The position numbers were made by a program, and so were the translations under genes. Shown one piece after another: positions 49,818 through 62,686 of a DNA stretch of 64,000 nt. The first letter of the stretch is position 1; every line of letters starts with the position of its first letter. The notes beneath the pieces were generated by a model that worked only from the letters and a program-made list of their open reading frames with translations, ran no database searches and was not told the origin of the DNA. This DNA is from an uncultured bacterium (GTDB lineage Bacteria > Abyssobacteria > SURF-5): assembly GCA_964453435.1 (NCBI GenBank), contig CAYVQZ010000003.1:24690-88689 (forward strand). Direction: 5' to 3'.

Positions 49818-50180
49818 ATGCCAAAGAAAATAATTCTTTTGCTCAAATCAGGAATAAAATTTGAAAACATGCTCAAGGATTACTTGAGCCAGGAGGGTTT
49901 TGAAGTTGATACCGCGGAAACCGTGGCCGAAGTCCTTTATTATCTCAAGAGGTCGCCTCATTTTCTCCTGGTCGTTGAGCAGGACACATACGAGATGGAC
50001 TGTCTGGAACTTTTTCTAAATGCTCGAGATATTCAATCGAACATCAAAGTTGTTTTCCTCGGTTCGGGTGATCCAAAAAGCAAAGACGAGATAATGAAGC
50101 TCGGAGGAATCTACCTCGATTCCCCCGTTCGGGCGGAAGTCTTCCGGGAAATCATAAACGACGTTCGTAAGGTCAAGTGA
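49818..50180 (+). CDS. Stand-alone pseudo-receiver (CheY-like fold lacking the phosphorylation residues).
   Basis: CheY-like alternation of hydrophobic beta-strands. The acid-pocket DD is replaced by KS (KIILLLKSG), and the phospho-acceptor Asp is replaced by Glu (LLVVEQD aligned to FVISDWN). Confidence 0.55.
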   Translation: MPKKIILLLKSGIKFENMLKDYLSQEGFEVDTAETVAEVLYYLKRSPHFLLVVEQDTYEMDCLELFLNARDIQSNIKVVFLGSGDPKSKDEIMKLGGIYLDSPVRAEVFREIINDVRKVK

Positions 50181-50280
50181 TTACCGGAAGATTGTTCGGT
50201 ATTGAGACTCGGTCTGAGTTCGCCTGGTTGGAACGTGAGGAAAAATCGGCGGAATTCAGAAACAAAGAGGAGATAAAACA

Positions 50281-50967
50281 ATGACAGAAAACGGGCTAAT
50301 CAAGGAACTCCACGCAAACGTGGTCCTCGGCCGGATAGACCGGAATGAAGATTTGTATGAGGAATTAGCCGGACGCCCCGGCGTAACCGAGTTGACCGCC
50401 CAGTGTGTGGAAAAAGGCGTGCCCACGAAACGGATTCTGGACGAGGGCCTGATCAGCGCGATGGATGAAGTCGGCGCGAAGTATGAATCGGGAGAATATT
50501 ACCTGCCGGACTTGATCGCATCGGCCGACGCCATGATAGCCGGCATGGAGATTCTCAAGCCTCTGTTACTGGAGGCTCAAATCCAATCGCGCGGCAAAGT
50601 CATCCTGGCCACCGTGGAAGGCGATGAACATGATATTGGGAAAAATCTTGTGGGCATTATGCTTCGAGCCGCCGGTTTCGAAGTAATCGATTTGGGAACG
50701 CGAGTTCCGGCGGGAGACATTGTGGAAGCGGTGGAAGAACATAAACCGAACGTGCTCGGATTGAGCGCGCTTTTGACATCCACCATGCCGCGCATGAAAG
50801 AGGTCATCGAAGCGTTGGAACGAAACAATCTCCGGAACGGCATGCGGGTGATGGTGGGCGGAGCTCCCGTTTCAAAGGAGTACGCGGATTCCATCGGAGC
50901 AGATGCATATGGAGAGGATGCGTTTGAGGCAGTAGAGCGGGCCAATGAATTGGTGGTTGTATCATGA
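50281..50967 (+). CDS. Corrinoid (cobalamin-binding) protein of the methyltransferase-associated MtbC/MttC/MtgC type.
   Basis: B12-binding_2 helical cap plus B12-binding domain. DxHxxG motif is GDEHDIGKN, S-x-L is GLSALLTS, and G-G is MVGGAP. Confidence 0.85.
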   Translation: MTENGLIKELHANVVLGRIDRNEDLYEELAGRPGVTELTAQCVEKGVPTKRILDEGLISAMDEVGAKYESGEYYLPDLIASADAMIAGMEILKPLLLEAQIQSRGKVILATVEGDEHDIGKNLVGIMLRAAGFEVIDLGTRVPAGDIVEAVEEHKPNVLGLSALLTSTMPRMKEVIEALERNNLRNGMRVMVGGAPVSKEYADSIGADAYGEDAFEAVERANELVVVS

Positions 50968-59560: not shown

Positions 59561-61051
59561 ATGAGCGGCATCATAGCGATATATGGTCCCGACGCGGAGA
59601 ACGAGAAGGAACTCGCCGAAGAAATGCTTTCGAGAATAAGGCATCGCGGGCCGAGTTTCGCCAATATCTTTTCTGACACCGGCGTAATCCTGGGTTTTGT
59701 GGGAAAAGGAACGCCTTCGGAATCCTCCGGTTTGCCGTATCGGGACAAGAACGGCTCTCAGGCGGTTACATGTGACGCCGAGATATACAATGCCGACACG
59801 CTTCTGTCGGCCTCGCAAACGGATGCGTCCTTCGAAGCCAACAGCGCACGGGCAATCGTGAATGCGTATAAGCAGGACGGCGAAACCTTTGTGAGGAATC
59901 TCGACGGCCAGTTCAGTTTCGTCCTTTTCGACAACGGCGACCTTGTCGCGGCGCGGGACCCTCTCGGTGTCATTCCCCTTTATACTGCTGAACGAGACGG
60001 ACTGAAATTATTCTCATCGGAACTGAAATGCCTGAGCGGGCTGGCATCGAACATACAAGAATTTCCCCCGGGAAGGCTATTCCATTCCCGGTCGGGTTTC
60101 CGCCGATATTGCAGCCTGGAGCCGGAAATCTCGGAGAATCAATCCGTTGATTCGCTGTGCGCACAATTGAGGGAGTTGCTCGAGGTTGCGGTTCGAAAGC
60201 GGCTGGAGTGCTGCGACAAGAAAAAAGGAGTGTTCTTGAGCGGAGGGGTGGACAGCAGCGTTATCGCGGCGGTGGTGAGCAAGTTCCTGCCGGGAGTCGA
60301 TTCCTTCACCGTCGGCATGGAGAACGGCGAAGATGTTCCGAATGCCCGACTCGTGGCAAAGCATTTGGGGACGAATTCCCATGTACATATTTTTGAGATC
60401 GCTGAGGTTCTCGAAGTCCTTCCGAAGGTACTATATCACCTCGAATCGTTCGACGCGCCGCTGGTGCGCAGCGCGACCGCAAACTACATAGCGAGTGGTA
60501 TGGCGTCACAGGTTGTCGACACGATATTAATCGGGGAAGGCGGAGATGAGAACTTCGGAGGGTACCATCATGTGAAAAGGTTCAAATCGCCCGAAGAACA
60601 GCAGAAAGAGTTCATAAACCTTATGTTGGCTCTTCACAACATGGGCTTCATGAGAACCGACCGAATGAACTGGGCGCATTCCTTAAATGTGAGAGCACCG
60701 TTTTTCGACTCGGCGGTCGTGAACCTGGCCATGAGCATTCATCCCAAGCTGAAACTGTACGGTGATGAACAAATCGAGAAATGGATTTTGCGGAAAGCGT
60801 TCGAAGACTATCTTCCCGAGGAGGTCGTCTGGCGTCCCAAGAAGCAGTTTGCGCGCGGCTCCGGCTCCGATGACCTTCTCACGCGACATGCGGAAAGCGA
60901 AATCAGCGATTCGGACTTCGACAATGGCAAAAGACGTTACCCCGACATCGAGTTCCGCTGGAAAGAGGAATGGTGGTACTTCACGATTTTCAGGGAGCGC
61001 TTCGGCGACGACCCCTCAACGCTGTCCACGGTGGGCCGCTGGTACGAGTAG
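59561..61051 (+). CDS. Asparagine synthetase (glutamine-hydrolysing)-like amidotransferase, paralog 1, with Ser instead of the catalytic Cys at position 1.
   Basis: The start is ATG at 59561, with GGAG 6 nt upstream. The ORF track's TTG at 59555 is rejected. The protein begins MSGIIAIYG, where class II GATases begin MCG. Asn-synthetase PP-loop is SGGVDSS. Confidence 0.8.
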   Translation: MSGIIAIYGPDAENEKELAEEMLSRIRHRGPSFANIFSDTGVILGFVGKGTPSESSGLPYRDKNGSQAVTCDAEIYNADTLLSASQTDASFEANSARAIVNAYKQDGETFVRNLDGQFSFVLFDNGDLVAARDPLGVIPLYTAERDGLKLFSSELKCLSGLASNIQEFPPGRLFHSRSGFRRYCSLEPEISENQSVDSLCAQLRELLEVAVRKRLECCDKKKGVFLSGGVDSSVIAAVVSKFLPGVDSFTVGMENGEDVPNARLVAKHLGTNSHVHIFEIAEVLEVLPKVLYHLESFDAPLVRSATANYIASGMASQVVDTILIGEGGDENFGGYHHVKRFKSPEEQQKEFINLMLALHNMGFMRTDRMNWAHSLNVRAPFFDSAVVNLAMSIHPKLKLYGDEQIEKWILRKAFEDYLPEEVVWRPKKQFARGSGSDDLLTRHAESEISDSDFDNGKRRYPDIEFRWKEEWWYFTIFRERFGDDPSTLSTVGRWYE

Positions 61052-61204
61052 CATGTGGCCGGTGGGCGCAGCATGAGTGGCAACGAGAGTGTTCAAATCG
61101 TCGCGACAAGAATTCATCATAATCACGAATCATAAATACGGCAGGCCGCGCCGACAGTTGACGGAGGGGCCCGCAGTTCGCCGATTGGAAAGGAGCATCG
61201 AACA

Positions 61205-62686
61205 GTGTGTGGAATAGCAGGAGTATGGGGCGAAGAGAATCCTTATCTTGTCCGGAAAATGTTGTCGAAGCTCACGCACCGGGGCCCGGACGATGAGGGA
61301 ATACATTGCGACCACAACATCACGCTCGGGCACACCCGGTTGTCGATTATCGATGTTCAGAGGGGACGCCAGCCCTTGTTCAACGAAGACAAGAGTATCG
61401 TTCTGGTCTGCAACGGCGAGATATACAATCACAATGCCCTCCGCAACGAATTGGCGCACCACACGTTTCAAACGCGCAGCGACTCCGAAGTGATACTCCA
61501 CCTGTACGAGGACCTGGGTCCCGCGTGCGTTGAAAAACTGGACGGCATGTTCAGTTTCGTGCTCTGCGACGGCGCCGACATGATGGTTGCGCGCGATCCT
61601 CTCGGCATCAAGCCGCTCTACTACAGCGAGCATCTCGGCCGGTGGTATTTCGCTTCGGAAATCAAGGCTGTGATGGGGCTTGTCGAGGATATTGCGGAAT
61701 TCCCGAACGGTCACTATTACTATTCTCCTTCCGGTTTCCACAGGTACTATTCATTGCCGCGCCACCCACCGAAAATCGCCGATGTCGATGAGGCCGTTGT
61801 CGGCGTGAGAAAACTGTTTGAGAAGGCGGTCGTCAAGCGACTCATGGCGGATGTTCCGCTGGGAGTCTTGCTGAGCGGCGGATTAGACAGCAGCCTGGTG
61901 AGCGCCGTCGCCTCGAAACACAAGAAGAATATGAATTCTTTCAGCGTAGGCGTTGAAGGAAGCGCCGACATCGAGGCCGCCCGGCTCATGGCCGACTTTC
62001 TGGATGTCAACCATCATGAATATGTCTACACGATAGACGAGATGCTCGATATCCTGCCGACCGTCATCTATTATCTCGAATCGTACGACGCGCCGCTGGT
62101 GCGAAGCGCGATACCCACGTATTTCGTGTCGAGACTCGCGCGTCGGTATGTGAAGGTCATTCTCAGCGGCGAGGGCTCGGACGAACTGTTCAGCGGATAC
62201 CACTATTACAAGAAGTGTCCGGAAGATTTGCTTCATGACGAACTCGTGCGGAGCGTTGACGGTTTGCACAATATCAATCTGCAGCGCCTGGACCGCCTGT
62301 CCATGGCTCACTCGCTAGAAGCGCGCGTGCCGTTTCTCGACATCGACTTCGTGGAATATGCGTTGCAGCTCAGCGCTTCCTTGAAGATCGACCGGCAAAC
62401 CGGTACCGAGAAATGGATTCTGAGAAAAGCCTTCGAGGGGGTGCTTCCCGATGAGATCGTGTGGAGAGTGAAGACACAATTCGCGAAGGGCTGCGGCTCC
62501 GCCGGGCTGATTGAAAATCATGTGGAAAACCTTATTTCTGACAGGGAATACCGGGAAACGCTCGAGATGGACCCGCATTGCCGCGCGCGTTCCAAGGAAG
62601 AGTTGTTCTACTACCGAATGTTCAAGGAACACTTCGGCAACGAAAGTGTGGTAAAATCGGTCGGCCGTTGGGAAGAGATTTATTAG
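61205..62686 (+). CDS. Asparagine synthetase (glutamine-hydrolysing)-like amidotransferase, paralog 2, with canonical Cys1.
   Basis: GTG start giving MCGIAGVWG. PP-loop is SGGLDSS. GGAG lies 9 nt upstream. Confidence 0.85.
   Translation: MCGIAGVWGEENPYLVRKMLSKLTHRGPDDEGIHCDHNITLGHTRLSIIDVQRGRQPLFNEDKSIVLVCNGEIYNHNALRNELAHHTFQTRSDSEVILHLYEDLGPACVEKLDGMFSFVLCDGADMMVARDPLGIKPLYYSEHLGRWYFASEIKAVMGLVEDIAEFPNGHYYYSPSGFHRYYSLPRHPPKIADVDEAVVGVRKLFEKAVVKRLMADVPLGVLLSGGLDSSLVSAVASKHKKNMNSFSVGVEGSADIEAARLMADFLDVNHHEYVYTIDEMLDILPTVIYYLESYDAPLVRSAIPTYFVSRLARRYVKVILSGEGSDELFSGYHYYKKCPEDLLHDELVRSVDGLHNINLQRLDRLSMAHSLEARVPFLDIDFVEYALQLSASLKIDRQTGTEKWILRKAFEGVLPDEIVWRVKTQFAKGCGSAGLIENHVENLISDREYRETLEMDPHCRARSKEELFYYRMFKEHFGNESVVKSVGRWEEIY

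What the first reader, a model, noticed from the sequence alone, without database searches (positions are those of the whole stretch)
49818..62686. Sigma-54-driven, disassembled methionine-synthase-like corrinoid methyltransferase operon with its own OpuC importer
Ten consecutive plus-strand genes encode a pseudo-receiver, a corrinoid protein, a stand-alone MetH-type AdoMet reactivation domain, two pyrrolysine-free MttB-family methyltransferases, a pterin-binding methylcorrinoid:THF methyltransferase, a two-domain SAM methyltransferase, an OpuC-type ATPase with CBS domains, a fused permease plus substrate-binding protein, and an AsnB-like amidotransferase. A second AsnB-like gene sits 153 nt downstream in the same orientation and may belong to the same unit. 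Together the first six functions re-create all MetH modules (methyl-donor barrel, B12 module, pterin barrel, activation domain) as separate proteins. The MttB barrel replaces the homocysteine barrel, which implies a quaternary-amine to tetrahydrofolate demethylation pathway (glycine betaine, proline betaine, carnitine or an unknown substrate) with a dedicated uptake system. Non-Pyl MttB systems described so far in anaerobes rely on the ATP-dependent RamA activator. Here the reactivation partner appears to be a MetH-like AdoMet domain and the whole unit is wired to sigma-54. This combination does not appear to have been characterised.
Basis: partly seen in the sequence, partly recalled or inferred. 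Interest (0 to 1): 0.8.

Follow-up and report, generated by a model that had tools for sequence, protein, structure and literature searches.

The report
Conserved corrinoid/SAM methyltransferase osmolyte cassette
The described gene row is real and belongs to a cassette found in more than 400 bacterial species. The cassette always pairs two unusual vitamin-B12-type methyltransferases with a SAM-dependent one, and it probably makes or recycles an unidentified methylated osmoprotectant rather than simply degrading glycine betaine.

Summary
Eleven co-directional genes (49818-62686) encode a pseudo-receiver, a corrinoid protein, a stand-alone MetH-type activation domain, MttB1, a pterin methyltransferase, MttB2, a 423-aa SAM methyltransferase, a ProV-type ATPase with CBS domains, a fused permease plus OpuBC/OpuCC-like binding protein, a Cys-less AsnB paralogue and a canonical AsnB. 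The gene order differs slightly from the finding: the pterin gene lies between the two MttB genes.

The activation-domain fold is verified. A sigma-54 activator with a GAFTGA motif sits upstream, and a -24/-12 element is conserved in an orthologous locus.

The SAM methyltransferase and AsnB genes are core members, not add-ons. In 56 of 56 species-level loci the SAM methyltransferase follows one MttB1-type and one MttB2-type gene. It is usually accompanied by either a Cys-less AsnB or ProA plus a GCS2 ligase, and often by a betaine-type ABC importer. MetK-AhcY, MscS or Trk genes occur in a few loci.

Neither MttB paralogue keeps the glycine-betaine-binding residues of MtgB. Some relatives also carry RACo/RamA-type activases.

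I favour (0.4) methyl-THF/corrinoid-assisted synthesis of a betaine-type osmolyte. Catabolic demethylation remains close (0.35). The substrate is unknown. I found no description of this cassette in the literature I could search.

The parts
48064..49425 (+). NtrC-type sigma-54 enhancer-binding protein (REC, AAA+ with GAFTGA, HTH_8). The first canonical start is at 48133, but REC strand beta1 (ILIVDAD) is encoded upstream of it. The phospho-acceptor position reads Glu.
49705..49720 (+). Candidate sigma-54 -24/-12 promoter, TGGCGC-N5-GTGCA, about 98 nt upstream of the first gene.
   Evidence: It has two mismatches to the consensus and is not significant on its own. TGGC-N7-GTGCA occurs only once in the window and only once in orthologous locus L006, each time between the activator gene and the REC-like gene.
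49818..50180 (+). 120-aa pseudo-receiver (no acidic pocket, no phospho-Asp, no Lys).
   Evidence: It is conserved at the same position in L006 and in a JGI contig.
50281..50967 (+). Corrinoid protein (B12 cap plus Rossmann domain; DxHxxG, SxL and GG motifs).
   Evidence: MtgC/MtbC-like, below the equivalog cut-offs
50964..51599 (+). Stand-alone MetH-type AdoMet activation (reactivation) domain, TM0269-like. The RxxxGY and KSVSG motifs are kept.
51688..53184 (+). MttB1 (MttBa orthogroup), non-Pyl MttB-family TIM barrel. Signature G/Y/D/A at the MtgB positions 97/312/348/356.
53185..53994 (+). Pterin-binding methyl-THF:corrinoid methyltransferase (MeTr/MtgA-like).
54003..55535 (+). MttB2 (MttBb orthogroup), a divergent MttB paralogue 33% identical to MttB1. 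Signature S/Y/Y/T.
55532..56803 (+). 423-aa class I SAM-dependent methyltransferase with a family-specific C-terminal half. It is the marker gene of the cassette.
56819..57985 (+). ProV/OpuCA-type ABC ATPase with tandem CBS domains.
57982..59523 (+). Permease fused to an OpuBC/OpuCC/EgtUC-class substrate-binding domain.
59561..61051 (+). AsnB paralogue without the N-terminal Cys nucleophile (MSGII). The PP-loop SGGVDS is intact. It is a predicted glutamine-independent carboxylate-amidating or ligating enzyme.
61205..62686 (+). Canonical glutamine-hydrolysing AsnB (MCGIAG). The same Cys/Cys-less pair occurs in the D. suflitae cassette.
62739..63638 (+). MscS-family mechanosensitive channel 52 nt downstream. 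It may be context only.
46642..47700 (-). Second MscS-family channel just upstream (context).

Best explanation
**What it is.** The locus is one copy of a widespread, undescribed cassette. Its invariant core is two ancient MttB paralogues (MttBa and MttBb) plus a dedicated 423-aa SAM methyltransferase. Here the core is complete with a corrinoid protein, a methyl-THF:corrinoid methyltransferase, a MetH-type activation protein, a Cys-less/canonical AsnB pair and an OpuB/C-type importer. It is probably transcribed from a sigma-54 promoter.

**Proposed mechanism (inferred).** The cassette builds a betaine-type compatible solute.
1. The pterin methyltransferase loads methyl groups from methyl-THF onto the Co(I) corrinoid protein.
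2. MttBa and MttBb pass these methyl groups to the amine nitrogen of a precursor. These are the early, near-equilibrium N-methylations.
3. The SAM methyltransferase carries out the energetically demanding last (quaternising) methylation.
4. The Cys-less AsnB (ProA plus GCS2 in other lineages) removes the charge of a carboxylate on the precursor or product, by amidation or by reduction.
5. The activation protein rescues oxidised Co(II) by reductive methylation with AdoMet.
6. The ABC system scavenges or recaptures the trimethylammonium solute.

**Shown:** the gene content, the protein folds, the conservation of the cassette, and the loss of the glycine-betaine-binding residues.
**Inferred:** the direction of methyl flow, the order of the steps, and the nature of the solute.
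For: **The three methyltransferases are strictly linked**
- In 56 of 56 species-level loci with enough flank, MttBa, MttBb and the SAM methyltransferase occur together. The SAM gene lies directly after MttBb or after MttBb plus the corrinoid protein. In the window its start overlaps the MttB2 stop.
- Both MttB orthogroups carry fixed pocket signatures. MttBa reads G/Y/D/[C,A,D] in 64 of 65 sequences and MttBb reads [S/A]/Y/Y/T in 78 of 78. These lack the carboxylate-binding Arg and His and the cation-pi pair of MtgB.

**Carboxylate-activating enzymes typical of biosynthesis**
- 37 loci have an AsnB-type gene and 12 have ProA plus GCS2. The two never occur together.
- The cassette AsnB is Ser, Ala or Gly at position 1 and never Cys.
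- ProA scores 530 bits against a cut-off of 289.

**The neighbourhood looks like known de novo betaine-synthesis loci**
- MetK and AhcY lie in the same operon in D. suflitae and relatives.
- Betaine-type ABC transporters are present in 22 of 56 loci.
- Methanohalophilus has a sams-sahh-gsmt-sdmt cluster, and Synechococcus has a betaine ABC transporter next to gsmt (PMC3176816, PMC2874817).

**Osmotic context**
- MscS genes flank the cassette on both sides, and a TreY/TreZ/TreS-Mak/GlgE trehalose island lies immediately upstream in the window.
- BON-MscS and TrkHA genes flank the D. suflitae cassette.
- Many host MAGs come from soda-lake, hypersaline or marine sediments.

**A separate corrinoid system sits next door in some genomes**
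- Several genomes carry a classical MeTr-CoP-MttB-MttB-DUF1638-RACo cluster beside this cassette. The cassette therefore keeps its own corrinoid protein, pterin methyltransferase and MetH-type activator, which suggests a separate role.
- The pterin barrel, B12 module and activation domain together copy MetH, whose physiological direction is from methyl-THF to an acceptor.
Against: - Every characterised MttB-family enzyme is a catabolic demethylase. No corrinoid-dependent amine N-methylase is known.
- The binding protein is closest to binders of fully methylated head groups. That fits uptake of a ready-made quaternary amine for breakdown equally well.
- E. limosum shows that catabolic MttB operons can carry ATP-using accessory enzymes that modify the substrate (MthK).
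- Relatives in Planctomycetota and other phyla have no corrinoid protein or pterin methyltransferase within 10 kb.
- One close relative (L011) has a third MttB gene, which weakens the 'three enzymes, three methyl groups' argument.
- MetK/AhcY, MscS and Trk neighbours occur in only a few loci.
- The SAM methyltransferase gives only generic fold matches, so N-methylation is not shown.
- No solute has been identified.
Confidence: 0.4

Rival explanations
1. **The first reader's model, extended.** An imported quaternary amine that is not glycine betaine is demethylated stepwise by MttB1 and MttB2 onto the corrinoid protein and then onto THF. This serves methyl-group oxidation or nitrogen supply. 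The AsnB-type enzyme and the SAM methyltransferase modify the substrate or the product, as the kinase MthK does for choline in E. limosum. The MetH-type domain keeps the corrinoid active.
For: - All known MttB-family members demethylate.
- The OpuBC/OpuCC-class binding domain points to a trimethylammonium ligand.
- An NtrC-type sigma-54 activator suits nutrient-responsive catabolism.
- There is a precedent for an ATP-dependent accessory enzyme in an MttB operon.
- Sulfate reducers are known to demethylate betaines to THF (my own knowledge of the literature on Desulfobacterium).
Against: - It gives no role for a strictly linked, stoichiometric SAM methyltransferase, nor for MetK-AhcY in the same operon.
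- ATP- and SAM-consuming steps make a poor energy-yielding pathway.
- The residues that bind the acidic group in all characterised quaternary-amine MttB enzymes are absent.
- Genomes with a classical RACo-linked MttB cluster keep this cassette as a separate unit beside it.
Confidence: 0.35
2. **Methyl salvage (transmethylation).** The MttB, corrinoid and pterin arm strips methyl groups from an imported environmental betaine into the THF pool. These methyl groups feed methionine and SAM regeneration for the SAM methyltransferase, which methylates a different, self-made solute whose backbone is provided by AsnB or ProA/GCS2.
For: - It reconciles the importer, the demethylase-type enzymes, the SAM methyltransferase and MetK-AhcY.
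- Betaine demethylation and methionine synthesis share modules in Ruegeria (PMC12478193).
Against: - No homocysteine-binding methyltransferase is present in any of the loci.
- The tight adjacency and overlap of MttBb and the SAM methyltransferase suggests successive steps on one molecule.
- The model needs two different small-molecule substrates, and there is no evidence for either.
Confidence: 0.1
3. The row is not one functional unit. A corrinoid methyltransferase operon, an Opu importer and asparagine synthetase genes merely lie next to each other.
For: - A 153-nt gap precedes the second AsnB gene.
- No transcript data are available.
- Transporter and AsnB genes are missing from some related loci.
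Against: - The same components recur around the SAM methyltransferase in different orders in many phyla.
- Start and stop codons overlap at three junctions, and no terminators were found between the genes.
- The Cys/Cys-less AsnB pair is also found in D. suflitae.
Confidence: 0.05

Closest known systems
Desulfitobacterium hafniense MtgB/MtgC/MtgA glycine betaine:THF methyltransferase system with a RamA homologue
   Same: - It has a non-Pyl MttB-family barrel, a cognate corrinoid protein and a corrinoid:THF methyltransferase encoded together.
- MttB1 is most similar to MtgB among solved structures (276 bits).
   Different: - The glycine-betaine-binding residues Y97/R312/H348/F356 are not kept.
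- The window has two fixed MttB paralogues instead of one.
- The window has a MetH-type activation protein instead of RamA in the locus.
- The window has an obligatory SAM methyltransferase and an AsnB-type enzyme.
Eubacterium limosum MthK/MthB/MthC/MthA choline (phosphocholine):THF system
   Same: It is an MttB-family system in which an ATP-dependent accessory enzyme first modifies the substrate. This is the best precedent for the AsnB or ProA/GCS2 partners.
   Different: - The accessory enzyme is a kinase and reactivation is by RamQ.
- There is no SAM methyltransferase.
- R312 is reported as conserved in MthB but is Tyr here.
Split methionine synthase / MtgBCD of Ruegeria pomeroyi and Phaeobacter inhibens
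   Same: MetH modules are encoded as separate proteins and share a corrinoid protein and pterin methyltransferase with an MttB-family enzyme. The pterin methyltransferase was proposed to work in both directions.
   Different: - Those systems use RamA-like plus DUF1638 reactivation and have no PF02965 protein.
- Their genes are scattered in the genome.
- They have no linked SAM methyltransferase.
Thermotoga maritima TM0268/TM0269 (MetH with a separate activation protein)
   Same: The 211-aa protein is the closest sequence and fold match to TM0269, a stand-alone AdoMet-binding reactivation protein.
   Different: TM0269 serves a homocysteine-methylating MetH. Here the partner barrels are MttB-family proteins.
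De novo glycine betaine synthesis loci (GSMT/SDMT with SAM synthetase, SAH hydrolase and ProVWX-type transporter)
   Same: SAM-dependent small-molecule methyltransferase genes are clustered with MetK and AhcY and/or a betaine ABC transporter in osmoadapted organisms.
   Different: - No corrinoid components occur in those loci.

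Membership tests
MttB superfamily (PF06253 / COG5598) | Full-length match to the MTTB profile above the curated cut-off | tested here: met
   MttB1 scores 349.7 bits and MttB2 191.3 bits against a cut-off of 25. Both align over about 430-460 residues to the MtgB and MttB structures.
Pyrrolysine-type trimethylamine methyltransferase MttB | In-frame UAG (pyrrolysine) at the active-site position; TIGR02369 above its cut-off | tested here: not met
   Both ORFs are uninterrupted. Met aligns with the Pyl position of 7XCL. TIGR02369 scores 451.6 and 252.2 bits against a cut-off of 525.
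MtgB glycine betaine methyltransferase | Substrate-binding residues Y97, R312, H348 and F356 (PMC13080624) | tested here: not met
   MttB1 reads G/Y/D/A and MttB2 reads S/Y/Y/T. The same signatures are fixed in 64 of 65 and 78 of 78 cassette orthologues.
MetH activation (reactivation) domain, PF02965 | Profile match above the cut-off, the activation-domain fold, and the RxxxGY AdoMet motif | tested here: met
   41.4 bits against a cut-off of 25. TM0269 matches at E = 1.6e-6. The AF2 model has pLDDT 92.6, and only MetH reactivation domains match it significantly. R154...G158-Y159 and KSVSG are invariant in the family.
MetH activation (reactivation) domain, PF02965 | Reductive methylation of the Co(II) corrinoid with AdoMet and an electron donor | not testable with these tools
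   This needs biochemistry. No flavodoxin or ferredoxin gene was found in the operon.
RamA/RACo-dependent corrinoid methyltransferase systems | A RACo/DUF4445 ATP-dependent reductive activase encoded with the system | tested here: not met
   None was found among the ORFs of the 64-kb window that were scanned. RACo is present in 5 related loci and DUF1638 in 3. The rest of this genome was not seen.
Methyltransferase-cognate corrinoid proteins (MtgC/MtbC/MtaC type) | B12-binding cap plus Rossmann domain with DxHxxG, SxL and GG motifs | tested here: met
   PF02607 and PF02310 both match. DEHDIG, SAL and GG can be read in the translation. The specific MtgC models score below their cut-offs.
Methyl-THF:corrinoid methyltransferase (MeTr/AcsE/MtgA type) | Pterin-binding barrel; PRK07535 above its cut-off | tested here: met
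   302.6 bits against a cut-off of 259; Pterin_bind E = 1e-27.
OpuB/OpuC-type osmoprotectant ABC importer | ProV-family ATPase with CBS domains, and an OpuAC-fold binding domain of the OpuBC/OpuCC class | tested here: met
   TIGR01186 scores 379.6 bits against a cut-off of 326.6. PF04069 scores 235 bits. The nearest solved proteins are OpuBC-derived sensors, Lmo1422, OpuCC, EgtUC and A. fulgidus ProX. The ligand was not tested.
Sigma-54-dependent operon | Adjacent enhancer-binding protein with GAFTGA, and a -24 GG / -12 GC promoter element | tested here: met
   The activator domains and GAFTGA are present. TGGCGC-N5-GTGCA lies at 49705-49720, and an equivalent unique site lies in L006. The element was derived after the fact and has two mismatches to the consensus.
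Sigma-54-dependent operon | Transcription start downstream of the element and dependence on RpoN | not testable with these tools
   No transcript data are available.
Glutamine-hydrolysing asparagine synthetase (AsnB) | N-terminal Cys nucleophile and an equivalog-level profile match | tested here: not met
   For the gene at 59561-61051 the N-terminus is MSGII and PRK09431 scores 416.7 bits against a cut-off of 499. Cassette homologues are Ser, Ala or Gly at this position. The second gene (61205-62686) meets both criteria.
GSMT/SDMT glycine betaine synthesis methyltransferases | Specific sequence relationship to the characterised GSMT or SDMT enzymes | tested here: inconclusive
   [not shown]

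The most novel reading that the evidence does not exclude
MttB-family barrels work here in the methylating direction. A MetH-like split system (pterin barrel, corrinoid protein, activation domain) uses methyl-THF to N-methylate an amine precursor through two dedicated MttB paralogues, and SAM is spent only on the final quaternising step. This would be the first cobalamin-dependent amine N-methylation pathway in primary metabolism. It would also be a new, SAM-sparing route to a still unidentified betaine-type osmolyte, present in more than 400 species of anaerobic and sediment bacteria.
Probability: 0.35. Interest if true: 0.92.

Novelty: new variant of a known kind. Interest (0 to 1): 0.72.

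Why it matters
- **Ecology.** MttB-family genes are routinely annotated in sediment and gut metagenomes as trimethylamine or glycine betaine demethylases and are counted in methylated-amine and methane-precursor budgets. This cassette shows that a large, phylogenetically broad subgroup has a different pocket and an obligatory SAM-methyltransferase partner. That subgroup consists of two fixed orthogroups tied to relatives of the SAM methyltransferase in 433 GTDB species, so those annotations are probably wrong for it.
- **If the cassette is anabolic.** It would reveal a new way to make a compatible solute from Wood-Ljungdahl methyl groups, and a new reaction type for corrinoid enzymes.
- **If the cassette is catabolic.** It would define a new substrate class, and a MetH-style, AdoMet-dependent reactivation route for MttB systems alongside RamA.
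- **Testability.** A cultured carrier, Desulfoferrobacter suflitae DRH4, makes the question directly testable.

Tried and rejected
1. **Sigma-54 consensus scan alone.** With two mismatches allowed there were 21 matches against 26.7 expected, which is uninformative. The site became credible only through comparison with L006.
2. **Sequence search of the SAM methyltransferase against PDB.** Nothing was significant, either as a single sequence or as a profile.
4. **Literature searches.** Searches for MttB together with a SAM methyltransferase, asparagine synthetase, compatible solute or betaine biosynthesis, for PF02965 with corrinoid systems, and for D. suflitae physiology found no description of the cassette. 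Ticak et al. 2014 (PMC4217433) is not held, so I could not check whether the MtgB reaction is reversible.
5. **Unbiased clustering of all unassigned neighbour ORFs in the related loci.** It found no further widely conserved partner; the largest cluster covered 5 loci. Annotating the top clusters did reveal RACo, DUF1638 and B12-radical-SAM genes in a few loci.
6. **Terminator scan.** It found no convincing + strand terminators between the genes, so it could neither split nor prove the operon.
7. **Exact-sequence cluster look-up for taxonomy.** It returned no names, so the source organism remains unidentified.
8. **MttB as a substitute homocysteine barrel.** I considered that the MttB barrels complete a methionine synthase for a local SAM cycle. 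I rejected this because no conserved Cys or His metal site is evident at the variable pocket positions, and because most cassette loci lack MetK and AhcY.
9. **SAM methyltransferase as an 'activator' of tertiary amines.** I considered that it quaternises tertiary amines so that MttB can demethylate them. I rejected this because it would be a futile cycle.

Full report

Yes. The + strand between 49818 and 62686 carries eleven ORFs with the predicted domain content.
- A 120-aa REC-like protein. It matches Response_reg only weakly (E = 1.3e-3, below the gathering score) and lacks the acidic pocket, the phospho-acceptor Asp and the conserved Lys.
- A corrinoid protein with B12-binding_2 and B12-binding domains. 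DEHDIG, SAL and GG motifs are readable in the translation.
- A 211-aa Met_synt_B12 protein.
- MttB1 (350 bits).
- A pterin-binding methyl-THF:corrinoid methyltransferase (PRK07535, 302.6 bits against a cut-off of 259).
- MttB2 (191 bits).
- A 423-aa class I SAM methyltransferase. Its real start at 55532 overlaps the MttB2 stop codon.
- A ProV-family ATPase with two CBS domains (TIGR01186, 379.6 bits against a cut-off of 326.6).
- A permease fused to an OpuAC-fold binding domain.
- An AsnB paralogue.
- A canonical AsnB, 153 nt further downstream.

Junctions are tight, from -4 to 37 nt apart from the 100, 88 and 153 nt gaps. No + strand terminator lies between the genes.

Two details differ from the finding. 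The pterin methyltransferase lies between the two MttB genes. The tenth gene begins MSGII, so the Ntn Cys of glutamine amidotransferases is replaced by Ser. Its PP-loop (SGGVDS) is intact.

**2.

The activation-domain claim survives its own refutation test.
- Pfam scores above the gathering cut-off.
- The best PDB sequence hit is TM0269, the separate reactivation protein of Thermotoga MetH (E = 1.6e-6 over residues 41-202).
- An AlphaFold model built on 19 homologues has pLDDT 92.6.
- All 19 significant Foldseek hits in the PDB are MetH reactivation domains. TM0269 is first (TMq 0.74, E = 8e-12) and nothing else is significant.
- The RxxxGY AdoMet motif (R154...G158-Y159) and KSVSG are invariant in the family.

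Both MttB ORFs are COG5598/PF06253 members and lack pyrrolysine. Met aligns with the Pyl position of the solved trimethylamine methyltransferase.

A full phylogeny against MtpB, MtcB and MtyB could not be made, because those sequences were not retrievable. A sharper test was possible instead. The glycine-betaine-contacting residues of MtgB are Y97, R312, H348 and F356. They were defined by mutagenesis and a ligand-bound structure, and R312 is reported as conserved in MtcB, MtpB, MthB and MtyB (PMC13080624). These positions read G/Y/D/A in MttB1 and S/Y/Y/T in MttB2. Neither protein belongs to any characterised specificity group.

**3. Sigma-54**

The upstream gene encodes an NtrC-type activator with Sigma54_activat, AAA_lid_14 and HTH_8 domains and a GAFTGA motif.

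A consensus scan alone is uninformative. However, TGGCGC-N5-GTGCA at 49705-49720 is the only TGGC-N7-GTGCA site in the 64-kb window. The only such site in the orthologous locus L006 lies in the same place, between the activator gene and the REC-like gene. The pattern was derived after the fact, so I treat sigma-54 control as probable, not shown.

The activator's own receiver is atypical. Strand beta1 with its acidic pair (ILIVDAD) lies upstream of the first canonical start codon, and the phospho-acceptor position reads Glu.

**4. What the surroundings and relatives show**

Close homologues of the activation protein are few (20), and every one with context sits in the same operon.

The SAM methyltransferase was the informative handle.
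- It belongs to a highly conserved family: more than 1,600 hits, mean column identity 61% over the whole length including the C-terminal half.
- A scan of one genome per GTDB species found relatives in 433 species. These include Desulfobacterota, Nitrospirota, Planctomycetota, Spirochaetota, Actinomycetota, Lentisphaerota, Kiritimatiellia, Hydrogenedentota and others. Many are from soda-lake, hypersaline or marine sediments.

I mapped reference proteins onto the 80 retrieved loci. In all 56 loci with at least 5.5 kb upstream, the SAM methyltransferase is preceded by one MttB1-type and one MttB2-type gene.
- The two MttB types are ancient paralogues, 33% identical to each other.
- Each is 45-55% identical to its orthologues across phyla.
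- Each has a fixed pocket signature: G/Y/D/[C,A,D] in 64 of 65 MttB1-type sequences and [S/A]/Y/Y/T in 78 of 78 MttB2-type sequences.

Two architectures exist.
- **Desulfobacterota and Nitrospirota:** [MarR]-Act-MttBa-MeTr-MttBb-CoP-SAM-MT-AsnB'. Of the 56 loci, 34 have the corrinoid protein plus the pterin methyltransferase, and 31 have the activation protein.
- **Planctomycetota, Spirochaetota, Lentisphaerota and others:** MttBa-(DUF362/Fer4)-MttBb-SAM-MT, with no corrinoid genes nearby.

Other recurrent partners are as follows.
- A carboxylate-activating enzyme is almost always present. It is an AsnB-type protein in 37 loci, or a bona fide ProA-family reductase (530 bits against a cut-off of 289) plus a GCS2 ligase in 12 loci. 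The two types never occur together.
- The cassette AsnB has Ser (28), Ala (9) or Gly (1) at position 1 and never Cys. A canonical Cys-bearing AsnB sometimes accompanies it, as in the window and in Desulfoferrobacter suflitae. The second AsnB of the window therefore belongs to the unit.
- Betaine-type ABC importers occur in 22 of 56 loci and MarR regulators in 23.
- In D. suflitae and relatives, MetK and AhcY follow in the same operon, and BON-MscS and TrkHA genes flank it.
- No other neighbour family is widely conserved.

The window is thus a rearranged member of the first (Desulfobacterota/Nitrospirota) architecture. The corrinoid protein and activation protein have moved to the front, and a sigma-54 activator plus pseudo-receiver replace MarR.

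The cassette sits inside an osmoadaptation neighbourhood. MscS genes lie on both sides, and a trehalose/alpha-glucan island lies immediately upstream (TreY, TreZ, GlgB, TreS-Mak, GlgE, MalQ, GH57).

**5. Reactivation**

Characterised MttB systems use RamA/RamQ-type ATP-dependent activases. The split MetH of roseobacters uses a RamA-like protein plus DUF1638 and has no PF02965 protein. In this cassette family a PF02965 protein is the standard partner, which is a real difference.

Independence from RamA is not established, for three reasons.
- RACo (Fer2 plus the RACo linker, middle and ASKHA domains) occurs in five related loci and DUF1638 in three.
- In L055, L073 and L074 these genes belong to a classical MeTr-CoP-MttB-MttB-DUF1638-RACo cluster lying beside the cassette.
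- No RACo gene is present in the 64-kb window, but the rest of the genome was not seen.

**6. Mechanism**

The components that can be assigned with confidence form a methyl relay between THF and a small-molecule nitrogen, or possibly sulfur, centre. The relay runs through a His-on corrinoid protein and has AdoMet-dependent repair of the Co(II) state.

The binding domain of the importer is closest to OpuBC-derived sensor scaffolds, Lmo1422, OpuCC, the ergothioneine binder EgtUC and A. fulgidus ProX. All of these bind trimethylammonium head groups, so the transported compound is probably fully methylated.

What cannot be read from the sequence is the direction of flow or the identity of the solute.

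I favour synthesis (0.4) for the following reasons.
- The SAM methyltransferase is strictly linked to the two MttB paralogues.
- MetK and AhcY share the operon in some carriers.
- ATP-dependent carboxylate-neutralising enzymes accompany the core.
- The osmotic neighbours fit.
- Some genomes hold a separate classical RACo-type MttB cluster next to the cassette.
- De novo betaine loci look similar: sams-sahh-gsmt-sdmt in Methanohalophilus, and a betaine ABC transporter next to gsmt in Synechococcus and Prochlorococcus (PMC3176816, PMC2874817).

In this model the two MttB paralogues transfer methyl groups from the methyl-Co(III) corrinoid protein to a primary and then a secondary amine. I infer that these steps are near equilibrium with methyl-THF. 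SAM then drives the final quaternisation. The Asp and Tyr residues that replace the carboxylate binders of MtgB could position or deprotonate the amine. This last point is speculation.

- Every known MttB enzyme is a demethylase.
- The importer fits substrate uptake.
- The E. limosum choline system shows that an ATP-dependent accessory enzyme can prepare the substrate (PMC12155760).
- Its weakness is that it gives no role to a stoichiometric SAM methyltransferase.

A methyl-salvage variant (0.1) and chance adjacency of unrelated units (0.05) are less likely.

**7. Comparison with what is known, and novelty**

The parts are members of known families, as set out in the membership table. The system is not a member of the MtgB, MtpB, MtcB, MtyB, MthB or Pyl-MttB groups by the residue test.

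The cassette combines two fixed MttB orthogroups, a dedicated 423-aa SAM methyltransferase, a Cys-less AsnB or ProA/GCS2, and (in anaerobes) a MetH-like set of pterin barrel, corrinoid protein and activation protein. I found no description of this combination in the searchable literature.

I rate it a new variant of a known kind. If the anabolic reading holds, it would be a new kind of pathway.

**8. Limits**

- No substrate, transcript or biochemical evidence exists.
- The taxonomic origin of the window is unknown.
- The neighbour statistics rest on tblastn with my own reference set, not on full annotation.
- The sigma-54 motif comparison involves two loci only.
- The fold search of the SAM methyltransferase gave only generic matches.

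Noticed in passing
window 30470-46529 (- strand): A contiguous trehalose/alpha-glucan island: MalQ (GH77), a TreY-like protein of 932 aa, a GH57/DUF3536 protein, a TreZ-like protein (CBM48, amylase domain, DUF3459), GlgB, a TreS-Mak fusion of 1117 aa, and GlgE. Together with the two MscS genes it makes the 30-64 kb region look like an osmoadaptation island.
   Followed up: partly
window 48064-48132 and 48133-49425: The receiver domain of the sigma-54 activator starts (ILIVDAD) upstream of the first ATG/GTG/TTG, which implies a non-canonical start codon or a mutated start. The phospho-acceptor Asp is replaced by Glu (DLVLTE), and no histidine kinase gene is adjacent.
   Followed up: partly
window 16973-16988 (- strand): A perfect sigma-54 consensus, TGGCACGAGGTTTGCA, the only zero-mismatch site in the window. 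It lies inside the coding region of an S4/pseudouridine synthase gene (16687-17430, - strand).
   Followed up: no
window 3803-6058 (-), 9452-11692, 11874-14135, 14226-16625 (+): Four paralogous proteins of about 750 aa, each with a C-terminal sulfatase/phosphotransferase domain and an N-terminal extension of about 310 aa (LtaS/MdoB-like). They lie among GT4 and GT2 glycosyltransferases and an epimerase.
   Followed up: no
window 21574-22638 (-) and 25340-26833 (+): A stand-alone DUF362 protein and a B12-binding radical SAM enzyme. DUF362 fused to a 4Fe-4S ferredoxin recurs between the two MttB genes in cassette loci of other phyla (L009, L053, L075, L079, L085) and could be an electron donor.
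   Followed up: partly
L055 13277-20263; L073 15147-20217; L074 14145-21259: Directly beside the cassette these Desulfobacterales genomes carry a second, classical cluster: MeTr-CoP-MttB-MttB-DUF1638-RACo. The MttB pocket signatures there (SWDG, GYLG, GYHL, GYDA) also differ from MtgB.
   Followed up: partly
L002 9423-13561 (Hydrogenedentota chromosome CP070779): A truncated version of the window's arrangement: corrinoid protein, activation protein, MttB1, pterin methyltransferase and then only a 170-aa MttB fragment. There is no SAM methyltransferase, importer or AsnB. It is apparently a decayed copy.
   Followed up: no
L011 (= L003) about 10850-16613: The closest relative of the window's cassette (SAM methyltransferase 76% identical) has an extra pterin methyltransferase, corrinoid protein and MttBa-type gene inserted between the Cys-less AsnB and the canonical AsnB, in the position of the window's 153-nt gap.
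   Followed up: no
window 59561-61051 versus L007 13003-14526: The window's Cys-less AsnB is closer to its own canonical neighbour (42% identity) than to the Cys-less AsnB of D. suflitae (35%). Loss of the Cys nucleophile may therefore have happened more than once.
   Followed up: partly
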